Shown: positions 10,710-40,187 of the stretch, one piece after another
Layout of the letters: every line of letters begins with the position of its first letter
Position numbering within the stretch: the first letter of the stretch is position 1
Source: TPA_inf: Saccharomyces
Lineage: Eukaryota
Assembly: GCA_000146045.2 (NCBI GenBank)
Contig: BK006948.2
Span: 96,001-160,000 of the forward strand
DNA length: 64,000 nt
Direction: 5' to 3'
Program-made: the position numbers and the translations under genes
Notes under the pieces: generated by a model
The model's database searches: none
The model's input: the letters and a program-made list of their open reading frames with translations, nothing else
Told to the model about the DNA's origin: nothing

Positions 10710-12188
10710 ATGATAATGTCATCAACTATGTCGACAGAAGCCGCCTTGGTACCGAACGAAAGTGTTTTTGACACAGTTTCGTCATTCAACGAAGACGATG
10801 CCAATTATAGCGTTCTTGATTTATACGATGACGACGATGAAGGGGATGATAGTTCTACAGTAGAACGAAAAGAAATATTGACAACACGTGAGCTTGAAAA
10901 AGCAAAGGCGTTTACCAGCTTAATCATGGCAGATCCTGAGAATTTTGATAGATATGGATTTAGCAAGAAAGGATATTTCATTAGTCAGGAAGAATACGAC
11001 AAATGGTGGACAGAATATAATAGATACACCGAAAGAAGAAAAAAAAAGTGGGAGAACTTTCTTCTTAAGAATAAGATTGAGCTCCACAATGATAATCCTC
11101 TAGTATATCCTGCAAGGACAGATGAATTGTCAAAATTTGTTAGAAAAGGTATACCAGCAGAATGGAGAGGGAATGCCTGGTGGTATTTTGCTGGTGGACA
11201 ACGACAATTAGACGCAAATGTTGGCGTTTATGATAGACTGAAAAGTGACTGTCGCGAGGGTGCCGTATCTGGTAAAGATATGGAAGCTATAGAACGGGAT
11301 CTTTATCGAACGTTTCCCGATAATATACATTTCCATAAGGAGTCCTTCCAAAATGGAGAGCCGGCGATCATCCGATCATTGCGTCGAGTATTAATGGCCT
11401 TTTCTGTTTATGACAAGACTATTGGATACTGCCAATCGATGAATTTTCTCGTTGGATTGCTATTATTGTTCATGGAAGAAGAGAAAGCATTTTGGATGCT
11501 GGTTATTATTACCGGTAAGTATTTACCTGGCGTGTATGAATCAGACTTAGAGGGTGCGAACGTGGATCAAGGGGTGTTGGTGTTATGTATCAAGGAATAT
11601 TTACCCGAGATATGGTCACACATTGAGTCATCGTATATGAATGGCAATGGCAGCACTGACCAGATATCAGGGCCAGCATCGGGGGAAGAATATCTCTGCA
11701 GGCTGCCTACGCTGACGCTGTGTACGGCAAGTTGGTTTATGAGCTGTTTTGTGGGCGTGGTGCCCATCGAAACGACCCTGAGAATATGGGACTGTTTATT
11801 CTATGAAGAGTCTCATTTTTTATTTAAAGTGGCTTTGGGGATACTGAAATTGAGCGAAAGCGAGTTTTTGGAGAGTAAAAGCCAGAAACTGTTTAGACAG
11901 TACTCTTCGTACACCTTCGGTGGTAGTAATGACTCTGATTCAACTTTCAAAAGATTAAAGAACAAGATTAAGACGCAGGAAGAGGCAGATATGGAGATTT
12001 TGCAAGTGATTCAAAATTTCCCAAAAAGATTGCTCAATCCGAATGATATCTTTGAGAAAGTCCTGATGAAGAAGAAGGTTGCGTTGAATGGTATTACCCA
12101 GGAAAAGATTGATCGCGGTAGAGAGTATGTGGCGATGGCGAGAAATAGACAAAGGGCGAGTAGCCGCCCAAAGGAAAGAAGAAAATAG
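10710..12188 (+). CDS. MSB4: TBC-domain Rab GTPase-activating protein, 492 aa
   Basis: 492-aa ORF with the TBC catalytic motifs IERDLYRTF (Arg finger) and YCQSMNF (Gln finger). Matches MSB4 (YOL112W). Confidence 0.85.
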   Translation: MIMSSTMSTEAALVPNESVFDTVSSFNEDDANYSVLDLYDDDDEGDDSSTVERKEILTTRELEKAKAFTSLIMADPENFDRYGFSKKGYFISQEEYDKWWTEYNRYTERRKKKWENFLLKNKIELHNDNPLVYPARTDELSKFVRKGIPAEWRGNAWWYFAGGQRQLDANVGVYDRLKSDCREGAVSGKDMEAIERDLYRTFPDNIHFHKESFQNGEPAIIRSLRRVLMAFSVYDKTIGYCQSMNFLVGLLLLFMEEEKAFWMLVIITGKYLPGVYESDLEGANVDQGVLVLCIKEYLPEIWSHIESSYMNGNGSTDQISGPASGEEYLCRLPTLTLCTASWFMSCFVGVVPIETTLRIWDCLFYEESHFLFKVALGILKLSESEFLESKSQKLFRQYSSYTFGGSNDSDSTFKRLKNKIKTQEEADMEILQVIQNFPKRLLNPNDIFEKVLMKKKVALNGITQEKIDRGREYVAMARNRQRASSRPKERRK

Positions 12189-12257
12189 TAAGCGCAACCG
12201 TGATAAAAAGCGCAACTGTGTAAAATAACAAGTATGTACGTACTAACTATACTAATC

Positions 12258-12914
<657 letters not shown>

Positions 12915-13175
12915 TTATTATTCTTCGCTAGTTTATCTCTGTATCGGTCTGTTCTAACCCTTTTCTCCAACTATGTTCTCCTGTGCATGTTTTCTTCTTT
13001 TCGTTTTTCCTTTGTTTTTTTTGGTCGTAGTTGTCGCAAGCTCGGCCTCCGGCCTGATTTTAAAACTATTCCTAATTCAAGATTCGGTAAAAAAGATATA
13101 TAATAGCTAAGGGGAGGAGAGGAATAAGAGGAAAAAGTTACATTAGAGGACAATACTCAATCTAACCCTTACTAG

Positions 13176-13889
13176 ATGTGCGATAGCCATCAAAAGGAAG
13201 AAGATAACGCAAATACGAGCGAAAGGGCGTTATTTTTTAATTACCATGAGTTTTCGTATTCATTCTACGAAGACCTCGGTTCCGAAGACGCTAAACCCAC
13301 AGAGCACGACGAAGACCACAAATTGTGTATTACACATTTCCCGAATGTGTATGCTGCTCGGGGCTCTGCCGAGTTCCAGGTGACCCGGGTGGTACGAGTG
13401 CCCCGGCGGTTCGATGAGTCTCGCAGCAGCCTTGAAACGCCACAATTTAGTACACAGCTTCCCGGTAGCGAGCCGGCGGCAATCGTGGGCGACGATGGCA
13501 CTAGCTTTGTGCGGTGCGGGCGTTACGACATTGGGGATCACGTGTTTGGCTGCTCCTCCGTCTCGCCTCTGTCAGAATATCTTAGTGCGGCAGAGCTCGC
13601 GGAGGTTGTGCACCGGGTAAACGGATTCTTGCTGCGTGAAGAAGGTGAGGTGTTCGGGTGGCGTAACTTAAGTGGCCTGTTGCTCGATATGCTTACGGGC
13701 GGTCTGTGGAGCTGGGTTTTGGGGCCCCTTCTTTCTAGACCTGTGTTTCAGGAGTCTCTCGCGTTAGAGCAGTACGTGGCGCAGCTAAACTCGCCGGGAG
13801 GTCTGCTTCACGAGCGCGGTGTGCGCCTAGTATTGCCCCGACGGTCCGGGTGCCTATCCCTAGATTTCGTCGTGCCCCGACCCAAATAG
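13176..13889 (+). CDS. SHR5: Subunit of the Ras palmitoyltransferase complex (Shr5/Erf4), 237 aa. Coding sequence is unusually GC-rich.
   Basis: 237-aa ORF whose length and position (between MDY2 and ZEO1) match SHR5 (YOL110W). From about 13290 onward the DNA is far more GC-rich than the surrounding yeast sequence; several antisense ORFs in the ORF track are artefacts of this composition. Confidence 0.75.
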   Translation: MCDSHQKEEDNANTSERALFFNYHEFSYSFYEDLGSEDAKPTEHDEDHKLCITHFPNVYAARGSAEFQVTRVVRVPRRFDESRSSLETPQFSTQLPGSEPAAIVGDDGTSFVRCGRYDIGDHVFGCSSVSPLSEYLSAAELAEVVHRVNGFLLREEGEVFGWRNLSGLLLDMLTGGLWSWVLGPLLSRPVFQESLALEQYVAQLNSPGGLLHERGVRLVLPRRSGCLSLDFVVPRPK

Positions 13890-14296
13890 TTAAACGTGTG
13901 GTTTATGGGTGCACCAGGGCTTTATCGTGTTTTATATCGATGGCGATTTGTGCCTCCAGTGTATTTTTGTATATCCAATTAAGGTTTCTTACCTAATTTT
14001 ATTTTTATCATCTTTAGTTAATGCTGGTTTGCTCTGTTTCTGCTGCTTTCTGTGCGGTTCTCCTCTTCTCTTGTTTCTTCGTGTTGTCCCCCATCGCCGA
14101 TGGGCTTATATGGCGTATATATATAGAGCGAGTTTTTACGTCGAAGATCATCTCAGTTTGCTTGATAGCCTTTCTACTTTATTACTTTCGTTTTTAACCT
14201 CATTATACTTTAGTTTTCTTTGATCGGTTTTTTTCTCTGTATACTTAAAAGTTCAAATCAAAGAAACATACAAAACTACGTTTATATCAATTAATA

Positions 14297-14638
14297 ATGT
14301 CTGAAATTCAAAACAAAGCTGAAACTGCCGCCCAAGATGTCCAACAAAAGTTGGAAGAAACCAAAGAATCTTTGCAAAACAAGGGCCAAGAAGTAAAGGA
14401 ACAAGCTGAAGCTTCTATCGACAACCTAAAAAATGAAGCTACTCCAGAAGCTGAACAGGTGAAGAAGGAAGAACAAAACATTGCTGATGGTGTCGAACAA
14501 AAGAAGACCGAAGCTGCCAACAAAGTTGAAGAAACTAAGAAGCAAGCTTCCGCCGCCGTCAGTGAGAAGAAGGAAACCAAGAAGGAAGGCGGTTTCTTGA
14601 AGAAATTGAACCGTAAAATTGCTTCCATTTTCAACTAA
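14297..14638 (+). CDS. ZEO1: Peripheral membrane protein Zeo1 (113 aa; K/E-rich, predicted coiled-coil/alpha-helical)
   Basis: 113-aa ORF MSEIQNKAETAAQDVQQKLEETKESLQNKGQEVKEQAE... ending in a basic tail. Matches ZEO1 (YOL109W). The antisense 108-aa ORF is spurious. Confidence 0.9.
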   Translation: MSEIQNKAETAAQDVQQKLEETKESLQNKGQEVKEQAEASIDNLKNEATPEAEQVKKEEQNIADGVEQKKTEAANKVEETKKQASAAVSEKKETKKEGGFLKKLNRKIASIFN

Positions 14639-14775
14639 TCACACTTGAATGTGCTGCACTTTACTAGAAGTTTCTTTTTCTTTTTTTAAAAATAAAAAAA
14701 GAGGAGAAAAATGCTGTTTATTCTGACCTTTTACATAAATTTTTCTTAATTGTATCTATCTAATAACTAATCAAT

Positions 14776-14813
<38 letters not shown>

Positions 14814-14870
14814 AATAATAGTAGTAGTAGTAGTAGTAGTAATAATGATGATGATGATGATGATGGATGA
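14776..14870. repeat. Composite trinucleotide microsatellite (AAT)n-(AGT)n-(AAT)2-(GAT)n, about 95 bp
   Basis: Direct reading of ataataataataatactaataataataataataataataataatagtagtagtagtagtagtaataatgatgatgatgatgatgatggatga. Intergenic between ZEO1 and tRNA-Gly. Produces the spurious poly-Leu ORF 14771..15019 (-). Confidence 0.95.
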
Positions 14871-14961
14871 TCAAAAGCCACAAAAAAGAATGCTCCGAGA
14901 ATAACCTCGGCGGTTATTTCACGTCCCGGAGGAAAAAAAGTTTGATAAGAAAGTAAAAATA

Positions 14962-15033
14962 TGAGCGGTACGAGAATCGAACCCGTGTCCCCACCTTGGA
15001 AGGGTGGGATGATAACCACTACACTAACCGCCC
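14962..15033 (-). tRNA. tG(UCC): tRNA-Gly (anticodon UCC), 72 nt
   Basis: Reverse complement reads GGGCGGTTAGTGTAGTGGTTATCATCCCACCCTTCCAAGGTGGGGACACGGGTTCGATTCTCGTACCGCTCA. It has a 7-bp acceptor stem, an A box (TAGTGTAGTGG), a B box (GGTTCGATTCT) and anticodon loop CTTCCAA, followed by an oligo-T pol III terminator on the minus strand (plus-strand A7 at 14927..14933). Confidence 0.95.
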
Positions 15034-17801: not shown

Positions 17802-17874
17802 GCTTCTATGGCCAAGTTGGTAAGGCGCCACACTAGTAATGTGGAGATCATCGGTTCAAATCCGATTGGAAGCA
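17802..17874 (+). tRNA. tT(AGU): tRNA-Thr (anticodon AGU), 73 nt
   Basis: GCTTCTATGGCCAAGTTGGTAAGGCGCCACACTAGTAATGTGGAGATCATCGGTTCAAATCCGATTGGAAGCA. It has a 7-bp acceptor stem (with one G-U pair), an A box (TGGCCAAGTTGG), a B box (GGTTCAAATCC) and anticodon loop ACTAGTAAT, hence anticodon AGT. Confidence 0.95.
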
Positions 17875-18137: not shown

Positions 18138-19808
18138 TCAGGCTCGATTATGAGATACGGTACTAGATAATTCAGGATTATCAGGATTATCAGGGTTTAC
18201 CACTTGCAATGGTCCGCTCATCATCATGTCGGGTAAAGAATTGGCACTGAACCTTTCATTTGCACTATTCAAAGTATTTGCCTCTTCAAAAACTGTCGAT
18301 GGAAGGTTCTGTTTCTGAACCGTAGCATCTTGTAAGCCAGCCAAGTTGTTTATGATGCTTCCACTGGTGTTTGAACTAGGACTACTATAATTTGCACCAT
18401 TACTCATAGAAAAACCATACATATTACTTGTACCGATAGAACCCGCTGTATTACCCCTTGAATGTCTCATCCAATTTGTCGTACCAGAGGAGGGAGGCGG
18501 TCCTATTGGATTTGCATCCTCATCACCGAACGAATAGGGCTGATAATGTTTCGTTTCCTCCAAGTCTAATTGGTCGTGCGATTTCCGTCTCCTCCATATC
18601 AGGAACAATAGAATCAAAATAATAAAAATTACGCCAAACACAACACCAATAACAATACCGGCAATGGCTCCACCACTCAGACGCTGCTTCGAAGTCGAAT
18701 TAGATCTATTATTTGAGGCGGCAGCAGTAGCAGTAGCTACCTCAGAAGATCGTTCAACCACGGATGTCCTCGTAACAAATATTGTTTCCTGATGTTGATC
18801 AGAAGTACTCACGATCGCTTTTGTAACCACACTAGTCACTAGTTCCACTGAGGTAACTATTGGTATCGTTGATGACGTACTAGGGGTCATTGAGGTCACT
18901 TTTGGAGTTGATAGTGTGCTGCTACTCGAGGACACTGGCACCAAGGTGGAAGAGGGTGAAGAAGTACGGCTATCGACTGTGGTATGCTCAGATGAGGACA
19001 ATGTAATGGATGAGGAGCTAGACGTAACAGAAAAGATAGAGGTAGTAGAGGAGGTAGTAGAGGAGGTAGTAGAAGAGGTAGTAGAAGAGGTGGTAGAAGA
19101 GGTGGTAGAAGAGGTGGTAGAAGAGGTGGTAGAAGAGGTAGTAGAGGAAGTCGAGGAAGAGGTAGTAGAAGAGGTGGTAGAAGAGGTGGTAGAAGAGGTG
19201 GTAGAAGAGGTAGTAGAGGAAGTCGAGGAAGAGGTTGTTGAAGTGGTAGAAACTGTCGTGGCTATCATTTCAGAACTTTTCATATCTGTTGACGTTCTCC
19301 TAGTAGTTGAAGAAATTTGGGCGGAGGACAATGAAGAAGTTGTTGAGGGCATATAGGAAGTGCTAGACCCTTCTTTGGAAGAGGAAGATTCAACCGATGA
19401 AACAAAAGTTTCAGCATTTACATACACGTTCATGTACGATGACCCTCCACACATTTGGTAAGGCCAGCCAGAGCATTTAGTTCCACAGTTTGAATCTGTT
19501 GATTTCGTCAAAGAAGTCAGAAAACTTACCGAATTACCGCAGTAACAATCTGACCCGTTAAATAATGCTACTACTGCTGACTCAGGGCACTGGTTTTGAC
19601 AGTATGACACTGATTGATATATGTATGAGTTTTTCAGAGACAGTCCAGCAGACTGGATATCCGCGGCACTGTAACAGCCTTCATAATTAAAATCAGCATT
19701 AACCAGCCCAATCAGAGATTGACATAGCAAACTTAGAAGTATAAATGAGATATACCCGATTTTAATAGTTCCTTTATTTGTTAATTTTGCAAACCATACT
19801 CTTTCCAT
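18138..19808 (-). CDS. WSC3: Cell-wall integrity stress sensor (WSC domain, Ser/Thr-rich stalk, single TM, cytoplasmic tail); 556 aa from Met at 19808
   Basis: Signal-peptide-like start MERVWFAKLTNKGTIKIGYISFILLSLLCQSLIGLVNA; Cys-rich WSC domain (CYSAADIQ...CQNQCPES...CYCGNS...CGTKCSGWPYQMCGG); a long (TSST)n stalk; a TM segment (AIAGIVIGVVFGVIFIILILLFLIW); a basic stop-transfer RRRK. The open frame extends 33 codons further upstream to 19907 (589 aa), but the signal-peptide context favours 19808. Confidence 0.85.
   Translation of the reverse strand: MERVWFAKLTNKGTIKIGYISFILLSLLCQSLIGLVNADFNYEGCYSAADIQSAGLSLKNSYIYQSVSYCQNQCPESAVVALFNGSDCYCGNSVSFLTSLTKSTDSNCGTKCSGWPYQMCGGSSYMNVYVNAETFVSSVESSSSKEGSSTSYMPSTTSSLSSAQISSTTRRTSTDMKSSEMIATTVSTTSTTSSSTSSTTSSTTSSTTSSTTSSTTSSSTSSTTSSTTSSTTSSTTSSTTSSTTSSTTSSTTSSTTSIFSVTSSSSSITLSSSEHTTVDSRTSSPSSTLVPVSSSSSTLSTPKVTSMTPSTSSTIPIVTSVELVTSVVTKAIVSTSDQHQETIFVTRTSVVERSSEVATATAAASNNRSNSTSKQRLSGGAIAGIVIGVVFGVIFIILILLFLIWRRRKSHDQLDLEETKHYQPYSFGDEDANPIGPPPSSGTTNWMRHSRGNTAGSIGTSNMYGFSMSNGANYSSPSSNTSGSIINNLAGLQDATVQKQNLPSTVFEEANTLNSANERFSANSLPDMMMSGPLQVVNPDNPDNPELSSTVSHNRA
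19041..19250. repeat. Coding 12-bp tandem repeat (about 15 units of GAGGTGGTAGAA and variants) encoding the (STTS)n stalk of WSC3
   Basis: Direct reading of gaggtagtagaagaggtggtagaagaggtggtagaagaggtgg... On the opposite strand it produces the spurious EVVEEVVEE ORF 18916..19356. Confidence 0.9.
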
Positions 19809-40080: not shown

Positions 40081-40187
40081 CATACCTACTCAGATAAGTT
40101 TAACGAGTTTCTCTTCCATAGGAGGGTCTAATCTCCTTCAGAAGTCTAACGTCTAAAAGTTCGTAAAGAATATCATCATAAAGTATG
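40081..40187 (-). ncRNA. Candidate box C/D snoRNA (about 105 nt), possibly the snR58 locus. Tentative.
   Basis: On the minus strand, 5'-CCAUAC-UUU-AUGAUGA (C box, complement of 40173..40179) ... CUGA (D box, complement of 40090..40093)-GUAG-GUAUG-3'. The 5-nt terminal stem CAUAC/GUAUG brackets the C and D boxes, and a possible internal D' CUGA is present. It lies in a 690-bp ORF-poor gap between YOL098C and WRS1. rRNA guide complementarity was not verified. Confidence 0.35.

What the first reader, a model, noticed from the sequence alone, without database searches (positions are those of the whole stretch)
13290..13889. SHR5 coding region is a sharp GC-rich island in AT-rich DNA
By eye about 60% of the bases in this 600-bp stretch are G or C (runs such as gcgggcgttacgac, ccccggcggttcgatg, gcgcggtgtgcgcc), against roughly 38% for the yeast genome and for the flanking genes. 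The abrupt composition shift begins inside the ORF, about 110 bp after the ATG, and ends at the stop codon. The paucity of stop codons creates three overlapping artefactual ORFs on both strands. Possible explanations are: a gene-specific constraint, GC-biased gene conversion at a recombination hotspot, or acquisition of this gene or its 3' portion from a GC-rich donor.
Basis: seen in the sequence. Interest (0 to 1): 0.5.

Follow-up and report, generated by a model that had tools for sequence, protein, structure and literature searches.

The report
Ancient GC-rich island over yeast SHR5
The yeast gene SHR5/ERF4 really is a 60%-GC spike in 37%-GC DNA, but it was inherited vertically, is shared by all Saccharomyces species, and looks like the slowly decaying summit of a local GC peak left by an old GC-favouring fixation bias, not a foreign gene.

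Summary
Window 13290-13889 is 58.0% GC against a window mean of 37.4% (z=5.8; next-best 600-bp window 46.7%). The ORF 13176-13889 is SHR5/ERF4 (Pfam Erf4).

Horizontal transfer is rejected. The GET5<->ERF4 gene pair is syntenic in all 12 yeasts examined. Protein identity falls off with species distance, and no donor-like relative exists.

All six Saccharomyces species carry the island with the same borders (54-62% GC against 34-38% flanks). Four outgroups lack it, so it predates the genus radiation.

GC pressure hit all codon positions. Arg is CGN in 14/15 codons, there are six I->V replacements, and GARP/FYMINK is 1.5-2.0 against 0.5-0.7 in outgroups. Codon optimality is the lowest in the window.

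SHR5 is the summit of a 2.5-kb GC3 peak (11430-13889) that also covers MDY2 and the 3' half of MSB4.

Since the genus ancestor, the 5' two-thirds has lost GC at neutral-like rates (S->W 32, W->S 12). The 3' third is frozen by synonymous-site constraint.

Best explanation: an old regional GC-biased fixation process of the gBGC type, confidence about 0.45. The main weaknesses are that the flanking intergenic DNA is not GC-rich and that Spo11 hotspot maps could not be reached.

The parts
13176..13889 (+). SHR5/ERF4 ORF (237 aa), a subunit of the Erf2-Erf4 Ras palmitoyltransferase
   Evidence: The ORF is listed. It hits Pfam PF10256 Erf4 at E=1e-20 over residues 72-230 and is 100% identical to an S. 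cerevisiae protein. GC 55.2%; GC1 .63, GC2 .43, GC3 .59. Fop is .32, the lowest in the window.
13353..13883 (.). Core GC island from maximum-likelihood two-breakpoint segmentation: 60.3% GC
   Evidence: One search gives the same borders (+176 to +189 nt from the ATG, -6 to +22 nt from the end of the stop) in S. cerevisiae, paradoxus, mikatae, kudriavzevii, arboricola and eubayanus. Likelihood-ratio statistics are 60-93.
13290..13889 (.).
11430..13889 (.). Regional GC3 peak spanning the 3' half of MSB4, MDY2 and SHR5, with SHR5 at its summit
   Evidence: Third-position GC was measured in 40-codon bins. The 17 bins inside this domain average .545 against .361 for 389 bins elsewhere in the window (Mann-Whitney p=9e-10), and 11 of the 19 bins at or above .55 lie here. 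The same profile appears in all six species.
13353..13655 (+). 5' two-thirds of the island: GC-rich but evolving at neutral-like synonymous rates and losing GC
   Evidence: From: inferred ancestral synonymous GC3 is .75, W->S 12 against S->W 32. Per-site rates are u=.102 and v=.089, against .079 and .109 in neighbours (not significant). GC* is .45-.53.
13656..13886 (+). 3' third of the island: synonymous sites under constraint
   Evidence: The S->W rate is .035 against .109 in neighbours (p=3e-5), with only 16 substitution events over 47 synonymous sites. Third positions are invariant across six species in 55-64% of codons, against about 30% in neighbours. The most conserved 100-bp window of the 6.7-kb alignment is 13775-13874. 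RNAalifold gives no covariation support for an RNA structure.
13890..14100 (.). Conserved, pyrimidine-rich proximal intergenic DNA between SHR5 and ZEO1, with ordinary GC
   Evidence: 43% of columns are identical in six species, against 14-29% in other intergenic regions. GC is 38.5-39.5%, the 78th-82nd percentile of intergenic 200-bp windows.
12897..13175 (.). Divergent MDY2-SHR5 promoter region: AT-rich, fast-evolving, not part of the island
   Evidence: GC 35.5%. Only 14% of columns are identical in six species.
12258..12896 (-). MDY2/GET5, the divergently transcribed neighbour, with elevated GC3 (.54) but ordinary GC1 and GC2
   Evidence: Pfam Get5_bdg, ubiquitin and MDY2_C. GC3 values.
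13260..13541 (-). Antisense ORF of 93 codons, a by-product of stop-codon scarcity. The same applies to 13265-13501(-) and 13414-13620(+).
   Evidence: Listed. The extents of open alternative frames differ among the six species.

Best explanation
SHR5/ERF4 is an ordinary, vertically inherited yeast gene. It sits at the summit of a roughly 2.5-kb GC3 peak.

In the lineage leading to the common ancestor of Saccharomyces, a regional nucleotide-level bias favoured fixation of G/C over A/T. The most plausible source is GC-biased repair of meiotic heteroduplex (gBGC) from recombination initiated in the two promoter-containing intergenic regions that flank this short gene.

That bias drove synonymous GC3 to about 0.75. 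It also pushed first and second codon positions as far as the protein tolerated: AGR->CGN, TTR->CTN, I->V, K->R, and gains of G/A/P.

Since the genus radiated, the force has largely lapsed in the cerevisiae/paradoxus/mikatae and arboricola lineages. There the 5' two-thirds of the island is relaxing toward the genomic equilibrium at the neutral rate. The 3' third is held by an unrelated constraint on synonymous sites next to the conserved ZEO1 upstream region.

What is shown: the island is real, old, shared and vertical; all codon positions are affected; the GC3 peak is regional; the island is decaying.

What is inferred: the force was gBGC and it was tied to a recombination hotspot.
For: (1) Vertical descent. 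The GET5<->ERF4 divergent pair is conserved in six Saccharomyces species, Nakaseomyces, Vanderwaltozyma, Torulaspora, Lachancea, Kluyveromyces and Kazachstania. Identity runs 92/86/86/83/80% within the genus and then about 47%.

(2) Age and distribution. All six species carry the island with the same borders: gene 54-62% GC against flanks 34-38%. V. polyspora, L. thermotolerans and K. dobzhanskii lack it; N. bracarensis and T. globosa show at most a slight excess.

(3) A nucleotide-level force rather than protein-level selection. Over 202 aligned codons GARP/FYMINK is 1.5-2.0 against 0.48-0.74 in outgroups. Arg is CGN in 14/15 codons and Leu is CTN in 19/27. There are six I->V replacements. 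GC3 at 48 invariant residues is .52-.79 against .25-.58 in the four outgroups. K. humilis, whose whole locus is 58% GC, has convergently acquired the same TRVVRVPRRF motif.

(4) Not translational selection. Fop is .32, the lowest of 31 ORFs in the window.

(5) Regional, not gene-limited. GC3 is elevated from 11430 to 13889 across three genes in all six species. This matches the conserved GC3 peaks reported for Saccharomyces (PMC2997560).

(6) Non-equilibrium decay. In the cer+par+mik clade the island has W->S 22 against S->W 68, while neighbours have 380 against 337 (Fisher p=3e-7). S. arboricola has 7 against 24. Synonymous rates in 13353-13655 equal those of neighbours. In S. cerevisiae, paradoxus and mikatae GC3 is now below GC1, as expected if fast-evolving sites relax first.

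(7) No overlapping element explains it. There is no Rfam hit. RNA folding z-scores are +0.67 and +1.18. Alternative ORFs are not conserved.

(8) Geometry. SHR5 is short and lies between two promoter-containing intergenic regions. That is the arrangement the conversion-tract model predicts to be most affected (PMC3020949).
Against: The two flanking intergenic regions are not GC-rich (35-39%, within the intergenic distribution). The upstream one evolves fast, so simple gBGC should have enriched it too. The total-GC border coincides with the stop codon in six species.

The amplitude, an ancestral GC3 of about .75, is far above the average gBGC effect modelled for yeast (about +.09 to +.12 over a base of .32).

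Whether gBGC operates in S. cerevisiae at all is disputed (PMC9246145).

No recombination or DSB map could be consulted.

Substitution polarities rest on parsimony over six taxa, and the S. eubayanus edge contains the root and cannot be polarised.

The relative-rate test shows no clear acceleration of the Saccharomyces Erf4 protein.
Confidence: 0.45

Rival explanations
1. Selection on nucleotide composition of the coding sequence or mRNA. High GC or rare GC-rich codons in SHR5 would have been favoured in the Saccharomyces ancestor, for example to tune Erf4 output to Erf2, to alter mRNA stability, or to build a nucleosome-favouring block upstream of the very active ZEO1 promoter. Conservative GC-raising amino-acid changes would have been carried along.
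For: The total-GC borders coincide with the coding sequence, and the intergenic flanks are ordinary. Synonymous sites in 13656-13886 are clearly constrained: the S->W rate is one third of that in neighbours, p=3e-5, and 41% of 4-fold sites are invariant against 18%. The island has persisted through the whole genus.
Against: In 13353-13655 synonymous sites turn over at neighbour-like rates and lose GC, so nothing maintains GC there now. GC3 is also raised in MDY2 and the 3' half of MSB4, which a SHR5-specific function does not predict. Poor translation could be obtained more cheaply with AT-rich rare codons. An inhibitory-looking GTA-CGA pair is not conserved among species (codons listed). There is no structured RNA.
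Confidence: 0.18
2. A local, temporary shift in mutation bias toward G/C, for example an error-prone repair or replication context, raised GC in this 2-3 kb region in the stem lineage without any fixation bias.
For: It would act on all codon positions and on neighbouring genes, and its cessation would give the observed neutral-rate decay.
Against: It should have affected the fast-evolving intergenic DNA at least as much as the coding DNA, and it did not. From general knowledge, known yeast mutation spectra are AT-biased. No mechanism is known that would confine such a bias to about 2.5 kb.
Confidence: 0.1
3. Ancient replacement of the SHR5 coding sequence by a homologous copy from an unsampled GC-rich yeast (introgression or a cDNA-mediated patch), followed by amelioration.
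For: The borders lie near the ORF ends. Codon usage resembles that of a GC-rich yeast such as K. humilis. GC has been lost steadily since the genus ancestor, as in amelioration.
Against: Synteny is intact. No relative closer than about 48% identity exists outside Saccharomyces among 5.8 billion proteins. The N- and C-terminal parts have the same pattern of affinities, and Get5 next door shows the same distances. The GC3 rise in MDY2 and MSB4 is not explained. Homologous replacement would need flanking homology.
Confidence: 0.05
4. Pure protein-level constraint: Saccharomyces Erf4 needs G/A/R/P/V-rich residues, and GC content merely follows.
For: GC1 (.63) and GC2 (.43) are the highest or near-highest in the window.
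Against: Synonymous sites are equally enriched: GC3 is .56-.79 at residues invariant across ten yeasts, and Arg is CGN in 14/15 codons. The replacements are conservative swaps at otherwise conserved positions (I->V, K->R). K. humilis reaches the same residues under locus-wide GC pressure.
Confidence: 0.03

Closest known systems
GC3 peaks along Saccharomyces chromosomes that correlate with meiotic recombination hot regions and are conserved between species (Lynch et al. 2010, PMC2997560; conversion-tract model of Marsolier-Kergoat 2011, PMC3020949)
   Same: Third-position GC is elevated over several adjacent genes (11430-13889). The profile is conserved in all six species. S. eubayanus is the GC-richest, in line with the genome-wide shift reported for S. 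bayanus. The intergenic spacers stay AT-rich. A short gene between two promoters is the most affected.
   Different: The amplitude is far larger: inferred ancestral GC3 of about .75 and total GC of 60%, against typical GC3 of .35-.45. It reaches codon positions 1 and 2 and reshapes the protein. In most lineages it is not at equilibrium but decaying. The link to a hotspot was not tested here.
Mouse Fxy (Mid1) gene straddling the pseudoautosomal boundary, and other gBGC 'biased clustered substitution' regions in mammals (from my own knowledge; related compensatory-evolution work in PMC12290510, seen)
   Same: There is a sharp intragenic rise in GC at all codon positions, with GC-raising amino-acid replacements in an otherwise ordinary, vertically inherited gene. 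Reversion follows once the force lapses.
   Different: In Fxy the introns and non-coding DNA rise too, and the cause (translocation into a highly recombining region) is documented. Here the non-coding flanks did not rise and the recombination history is unknown.
Lachancea kluyveri chromosome C left arm, a GC-rich introgressed region (mentioned in PMC9246145; PMC5554000 listed)
   Same: A compositionally deviant, GC-rich segment in an otherwise AT-richer Saccharomycetaceae genome.
   Different: That region is about 1 Mb, includes intergenic DNA, and is attributed to introgression. The SHR5 island is 0.5 kb (2.5 kb at GC3), excludes intergenic DNA, and shows no sign of foreign origin.
Erf4/GOLGA7 family (PF10256), partner of the DHHC palmitoyltransferase Erf2
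   Same: The ORF is S. cerevisiae SHR5/ERF4 itself, with a full-length Pfam match.
   Different: Nothing differs at the family level. Only its nucleotide and amino-acid composition is unusual compared with orthologues outside Saccharomyces.

Membership tests
Erf4/GOLGA7 protein family (SHR5/ERF4 orthologue) | Significant match to the Pfam PF10256 profile above the gathering score | tested here: met
   74.3 bits against a cut-off of 29.3, E=1e-20, profile positions 1-116 of 116.
Erf4/GOLGA7 protein family (SHR5/ERF4 orthologue) | Orthology by conserved gene neighbourhood and graded identity | tested here: met
   GET5/MDY2 is divergently adjacent in all 12 loci. Identity is 100% to the S. cerevisiae protein and falls to 80% for S. 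eubayanus.
gBGC tract / recombination-associated GC peak | GC enrichment at synonymous sites extending over neighbouring genes, not one gene only | tested here: met
   Mean GC3 is .545 in 17 bins between 11430 and 13889, against .361 elsewhere, p=9e-10. The pattern is present in six species.
gBGC tract / recombination-associated GC peak | Enrichment independent of codon position and of translational optimality, with GC-raising amino-acid replacements | tested here: met
   GC1 .63-.67, GC2 .43-.46, GARP/FYMINK 1.5-2.0 against 0.5-0.7, Arg CGN 14/15. Fop is .32, the lowest in the window.
gBGC tract / recombination-associated GC peak | Non-coding DNA inside the tract shares the enrichment | tested here: not met
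   The intergenic regions 12897-13175 and 13890-14296 are 35-39% GC, the 59th-82nd percentile of intergenic windows. Parsimony places their ancestral GC at about .31-.32.
gBGC tract / recombination-associated GC peak | Coincidence with a meiotic DSB or crossover hotspot | not testable with these tools
   The Pan 2011, Mancera 2008 and Lam & Keeney 2015 data are not held, or no supplements are held. No paper in the library links SHR5 or ZEO1 to hotspots.
gBGC tract / recombination-associated GC peak | Present-day equilibrium GC (GC*) elevated relative to flanks | tested here: inconclusive
   It is not elevated in 13353-13655 (GC* .45-.53 against .40-.42, rates not different), nor on the cer, par, mik and arb branches. 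It is elevated on the S. kudriavzevii branch (.59-.70). The S. eubayanus edge (.71-.87) contains the root and cannot be polarised.
gBGC tract / recombination-associated GC peak | W->S alleles segregate at higher frequency than S->W alleles | not testable with these tools
   No population data were available. Only two further S. cerevisiae alleles were recovered (L011, L013).
Horizontally acquired or introgressed segment | Phylogenetic incongruence, or a nearest relative outside the expected clade | tested here: not met
   Every hit is consistent with a Saccharomycetaceae origin (all named ones are) and they rank by species distance. The island part is equidistant (.37-.46) from all outgroups, as is the N-terminal part.
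Horizontally acquired or introgressed segment | Break of synteny or patchy presence among close relatives | tested here: not met
   The gene order SKM1-MSB4-MDY2-SHR5-ZEO1 is the same in all six Saccharomyces species. The island is present in all six.
Horizontally acquired or introgressed segment | Amelioration of deviant composition toward that of the host | tested here: met
   There is net S->W loss. The relic-of-gBGC model predicts the same, so this feature does not discriminate.
Translationally selected codon bias | Excess of tRNA-optimal codons | tested here: not met
   Fop is .32, against .84 for ZEO1 and .40-.61 for other ORFs.
Structured RNA or overlapping gene embedded in the coding sequence | Known RNA family, stability beyond shuffled controls, covariation, or a conserved alternative ORF | tested here: not met
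   There is no Rfam hit in the island. Folding z-scores are +0.67 and +1.18. The RNAalifold covariation term is -0.41 kcal/mol. Alternative-frame ORFs are not conserved in extent.

The most novel reading that the evidence does not exclude
The GC-rich block is, or contains, a selected DNA/RNA-level device specific to Saccharomyces. The clearest candidate is the 3' 230 bp of SHR5 (13656-13886), whose synonymous sites are frozen and which is contiguous with the conserved ZEO1 upstream region. It could be a coding-embedded regulatory or chromatin element, for example a nucleosome-favouring barrier or transcription-factor site cluster for the very active ZEO1 promoter, or a cis-element in the SHR5 mRNA. 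On this reading the island's composition was built and kept by selection rather than by biased conversion.
Probability: 0.12. Interest if true: 0.6.

Novelty: new member of a known kind. Interest (0 to 1): 0.38.

Why it matters
If the gBGC-type reading is right, SHR5 is an unusually clean and extreme natural case in yeast of a non-adaptive nucleotide bias rewriting a protein: I->V, K->R, and almost exclusive use of the rarest Arg codons. It is followed by visible relaxation.

That bears on a live dispute over whether GC-biased conversion acts in Saccharomyces at all, or whether GC content instead drives recombination (PMC9246145). The locus offers a 0.5-kb test bed in a tractable organism. It can be recoded, its DSB and crossover frequencies measured, and lineages that keep the island (S. 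eubayanus, S. kudriavzevii) compared with those that are losing it.

It is also a caution for composition-based screens. A 5.8-sd GC spike with atypical codon usage in a eukaryotic genome is not evidence of horizontal transfer.

If the island instead proves to be maintained by selection, it would be an example of regulatory information embedded in synonymous sites next to a strong promoter.

Tried and rejected
1. Horizontal transfer or a foreign patch. Tested by synteny, graded identity, N- versus C-terminal affinity and a relative-rate comparison with Get5. Rejected as the main explanation.

2. K. humilis (P0034) as donor or as an independent island. Its whole locus is 58% GC with GC3 .78-.88 in every gene, so it is not a gene-specific island. 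It served instead as a control for what GC pressure does to Erf4.

3. Known or structured RNA. The Rfam scan of the window, single-sequence folding of both strands and RNAalifold on the constrained 3' block all gave nothing.

4. Overlapping protein-coding ORFs. Their extents are not conserved.

5. Tandem or other repeats in the island. None were found.

6. Translational selection. Fop is the lowest in the window.

7. Spo11, crossover or hot-ORF data. The Lam & Keeney preprint has no held supplements. Pan 2011, Mancera 2008 and the Science version are not held. The supplement of the SVM hotspot paper holds no ORF names. Literature searches for SHR5/YOL110W/ERF4/ZEO1 combined with GC content, GC-rich, recombination hotspot or Spo11 found nothing relevant.

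8. Polarising the S. eubayanus branch with S. uvarum DNA.

9. My first reading, from raw third-position parsimony counts, that synonymous rates are normal across the whole island. This was revised after 4-fold-site and sub-block analyses showed real constraint in the 3' third only.

10. NG86 dS values. These are reported, but they are biased by codon-family composition and were not relied upon.

11. First change-point run. It latched onto the AT-rich microsatellite region in two species and was repeated on a narrower range.
Full report
**Observation**

The stretch 13290-13889 is 58.0% GC in a window averaging 37.4%. Among 600-bp windows (sd 3.6%) it is the maximum, z=5.8, and the runner-up reaches only 46.7%.

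The ORF 13176-13889 (+), 237 aa, matches Pfam Erf4 end to end (E=1e-20). Its neighbours are Get5/Mdy2 (12258-12896, -) and a ZEO1-like 113-aa ORF (14297-14638, +). The protein is 100% identical to an S. cerevisiae protein.

The three overlapping alternative ORFs exist. Their extents are not conserved among species, so they are by-products of the scarcity of stop codons.

**Borders**

A two-breakpoint likelihood segmentation puts the island at 13353-13883 (60.3% GC). That is 177 nt after the ATG and 6 nt before the end of the stop codon. Essentially the same borders appear in all six Saccharomyces species.

Two qualifications apply. First, at strictly synonymous third positions codons 1-59 were also GC-enriched in the genus ancestor (0.61 against 0.36 in neighbours). 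The AT-rich 5' end reflects conserved F/Y/N/H/E/D/K residues, whose codons cannot be GC-rich.

Second, third-position GC is raised well beyond SHR5. In 40-codon bins it is 0.48-0.62 in the 3' half of MSB4, 0.43-0.60 in MDY2 and 0.51-0.71 in SHR5, in all six species. In the S. cerevisiae window the 17 bins between 11430 and 13889 average 0.545 against 0.361 for the other 389 bins (p=9e-10).

SHR5 is therefore the summit of a 2.5-kb GC3 peak. Only there does the enrichment reach codon positions 1 and 2 and become visible in total GC. The intergenic DNA on both sides is ordinary: 35-39% GC, the 59th-82nd percentile of intergenic windows.

**Not horizontal transfer**

I fetched the orthologous loci of S. 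paradoxus, mikatae, kudriavzevii, arboricola and eubayanus. I also fetched those of N. bracarensis, V. polyspora, T. globosa, L. thermotolerans, K. dobzhanskii and K. humilis.
- The divergent GET5-ERF4 pair is conserved in every one. Within Saccharomyces the order SKM1-MSB4-MDY2-SHR5-ZEO1 is identical.
- Protein identity declines as 92, 86, 86, 83 and 80% within the genus, and then to about 47% for all other Saccharomycetaceae.
- The island-encoded part and the N-terminal part show the same pattern of affinities.
- The distances parallel those of the neighbouring Get5.
- No closer relative exists in a 5.8-billion-protein collection.

**Age**

All six Saccharomyces species carry the island: gene 54-62% GC against flanks 34-38%, with S. 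eubayanus highest at GC3 0.74. V. polyspora, L. thermotolerans and K. dobzhanskii show none. N. bracarensis and T. globosa show at most a slight excess over their neighbours.

K. humilis ERF4 is 64% GC, but so is its whole locus (58%, GC3 0.78-0.88 in every gene). That is a locus-wide property, not an island. The island thus arose on the stem leading to Saccharomyces.

**Nature of the force**

Over 202 ungapped aligned codons, GARP/FYMINK is 1.5-2.0 in Saccharomyces against 0.48-0.74 in four outgroups. Arg is encoded by CGN in 14 of 15 codons, against 0/8 in V. polyspora and 3/12 in K. dobzhanskii. Leu is CTN in 19 of 27.

At 48 residues invariant in ten yeasts, GC3 is 0.52-0.79 against 0.25-0.58 in the four outgroups, so the ranges overlap (K. 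dobzhanskii 0.58). The commonest replacement is I->V, six times, for example TRIVRIPRRF -> TRVVRVPRRF. K. humilis, under locus-wide GC pressure, has convergently acquired the same V residues.

Codon usage runs against translational optima: Fop is 0.32, the lowest of 31 ORFs. This is the signature of a nucleotide-level pressure that is blind to codon position. It is not protein-level or translational selection.

**Dynamics since the genus ancestor**

I used parsimony on a six-species alignment of 6.7 kb.
- The inferred ancestral island GC is 0.63, and 0.72-0.75 at third positions.
- In the cerevisiae+paradoxus+mikatae clade the island shows 22 W->S against 68 S->W changes, while neighbouring genes show 380 against 337 (Fisher p=3e-7).
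- S. arboricola shows 7 against 24. S. kudriavzevii is balanced at 13 against 15.
- The S. eubayanus edge shows 29 against 20, but it contains the root and cannot be polarised.

Splitting the island is informative.
- In 13353-13655, strictly synonymous sites evolve at the same per-site rates as in neighbours (u 0.10 against 0.08; v 0.09 against 0.11). They are far from equilibrium, with 12 W->S against 32 S->W and GC* of 0.45-0.53. This is a neutrally decaying relic.
- In 13656-13886 the S->W rate is one third of that in neighbours (p=3e-5) and all substitution classes are rare.
- Consistently, 41% of 4-fold sites in the island are invariant in six species against 18% in neighbours (p=5e-5), and the excess is concentrated in codons 161-237.
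- This constrained block abuts the conserved, pyrimidine-rich proximal half of the SHR5-ZEO1 intergenic region.
- It shows no RNA covariation, no Rfam match and no excess folding stability.

In S. cerevisiae, paradoxus and mikatae, GC3 (0.56-0.60) has fallen below GC1 (0.61-0.63). It exceeds GC1 in S. eubayanus and in K. humilis. That is expected if the fastest-evolving sites relax first.

**Interpretation**

The best-supported account is an old, regional, GC-favouring fixation bias of the kind attributed to GC-biased gene conversion. It would have acted on a short gene lying between two promoter-containing intergenic regions, the geometry the conversion-tract model predicts to be most exposed (PMC3020949). 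It also fits the conserved GC3 peaks already described for Saccharomyces, including the systematically higher GC3 of the S. bayanus lineage (PMC2997560).

The force has since weakened in most lineages.

I hold this at about 0.45 for several reasons.
- The flanking intergenic DNA, one stretch of which evolves very fast, did not become GC-rich.
- The amplitude is several-fold above the average modelled effect.
- The existence of gBGC in S. cerevisiae is contested (PMC9246145).
- I could not consult any DSB or crossover map.

The rivals are as follows.
- Past selection on coding-sequence composition: 0.18. It is supported by the CDS-coincident borders and the constrained 3' block.
- A transient local mutation bias: 0.10.
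- Replacement from an unsampled GC-rich relative: 0.05.
- Pure protein-level constraint: 0.03.

**Novelty**

No paper in the searchable library mentions the composition of SHR5/YOL110W/ERF4. The phenomenon belongs to a known kind, yeast GC3 peaks and gBGC-like tracts. This is an extreme and well-delimited member, with an added unexplained block of synonymous constraint. It is a useful test locus rather than a new category.

Noticed in passing
window 13656-14100: A conserved block spans the last ~230 bp of SHR5 and the first ~210 bp of the SHR5-ZEO1 spacer. Third positions are invariant in 55-64% of codons (against ~30% in neighbours). The most conserved 100-bp window of the 6.7-kb alignment is 13775-13874. 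The proximal spacer has 43% of columns identical in six species, against 14-29% in other spacers. It may be ZEO1 upstream regulatory sequence reaching into the SHR5 coding region. No RNA covariation was found.
   Followed up: partly
L006 5661-5740 (L. thermotolerans ERF4); proteins P0011, P0019, P0024 and others: ERF4 of pre-WGD yeasts has a short intron near the 3' end (GTATGT at gene nt 661, TACTAAC at 713), just before the ...LDFxIPKP tail. Many database proteins read through it as '...SGYLSVC...'. The intron is absent in Saccharomyces, N. bracarensis, V. polyspora and K. humilis.
   Followed up: partly
L012 1-5778 (Kazachstania/Maudiozyma humilis): The entire syntenic locus is 58% GC, with GC3 of 0.78-0.88 in all five genes. 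Its Erf4 has convergently acquired the same I->V changes as Saccharomyces (TRVVRVPRRF).
   Followed up: partly
window 12897-13175: The divergent MDY2-SHR5 promoter is the least conserved segment of the six-species alignment. Only 14% of columns are identical, and S. cerevisiae-S. paradoxus identity is 75-78%. It sits between two GC3-rich genes.
   Followed up: no
window 14761-14871: A compound trinucleotide microsatellite, (TAA)n then (TAG)n then (ATG)n, lies in a 17%-GC stretch between ZEO1 and a tRNA gene. It produces a spurious poly-Leu/Ser ORF on the minus strand (14771-15019).
   Followed up: no
window 14962-15033 (-), 17802-17874 (+), 40088-40183 (-): tRNA-Gly(UCC), tRNA-Thr(AGU) and the C/D-box snoRNA snR58 are the only Rfam or ARAGORN hits in the window.
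   Followed up: no
L011 5001-5718 (S. cerevisiae assembly GCA_949122415.1) / protein P0008: The odd 216-aa 'S. cerevisiae' Erf4 with 64% identity is an annotation artefact. Its DNA is 99.6% identical to the window but carries several 1-nt indels, probably long-read assembly errors in this GC-rich gene.
   Followed up: yes
window ~13480-13500 (codons ~103-110) and orthologous positions: The acidic/glycine loop (GDDG...) is a hotspot of length variation among Saccharomyces species. S. arboricola has +9 codons (VDCDDDGDD), and S. eubayanus and P0006 (species not named by any source; about 80% identical to S. cerevisiae Erf4) carry Gly/Ser insertions.
   Followed up: no
window 18138-19808 (-): A 556-aa ORF has unusually high second-position GC (0.57) but ordinary GC3 (0.37). 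This suggests a compositionally biased (Ser/Thr/Ala/Pro-rich) protein. It was not examined.
   Followed up: no
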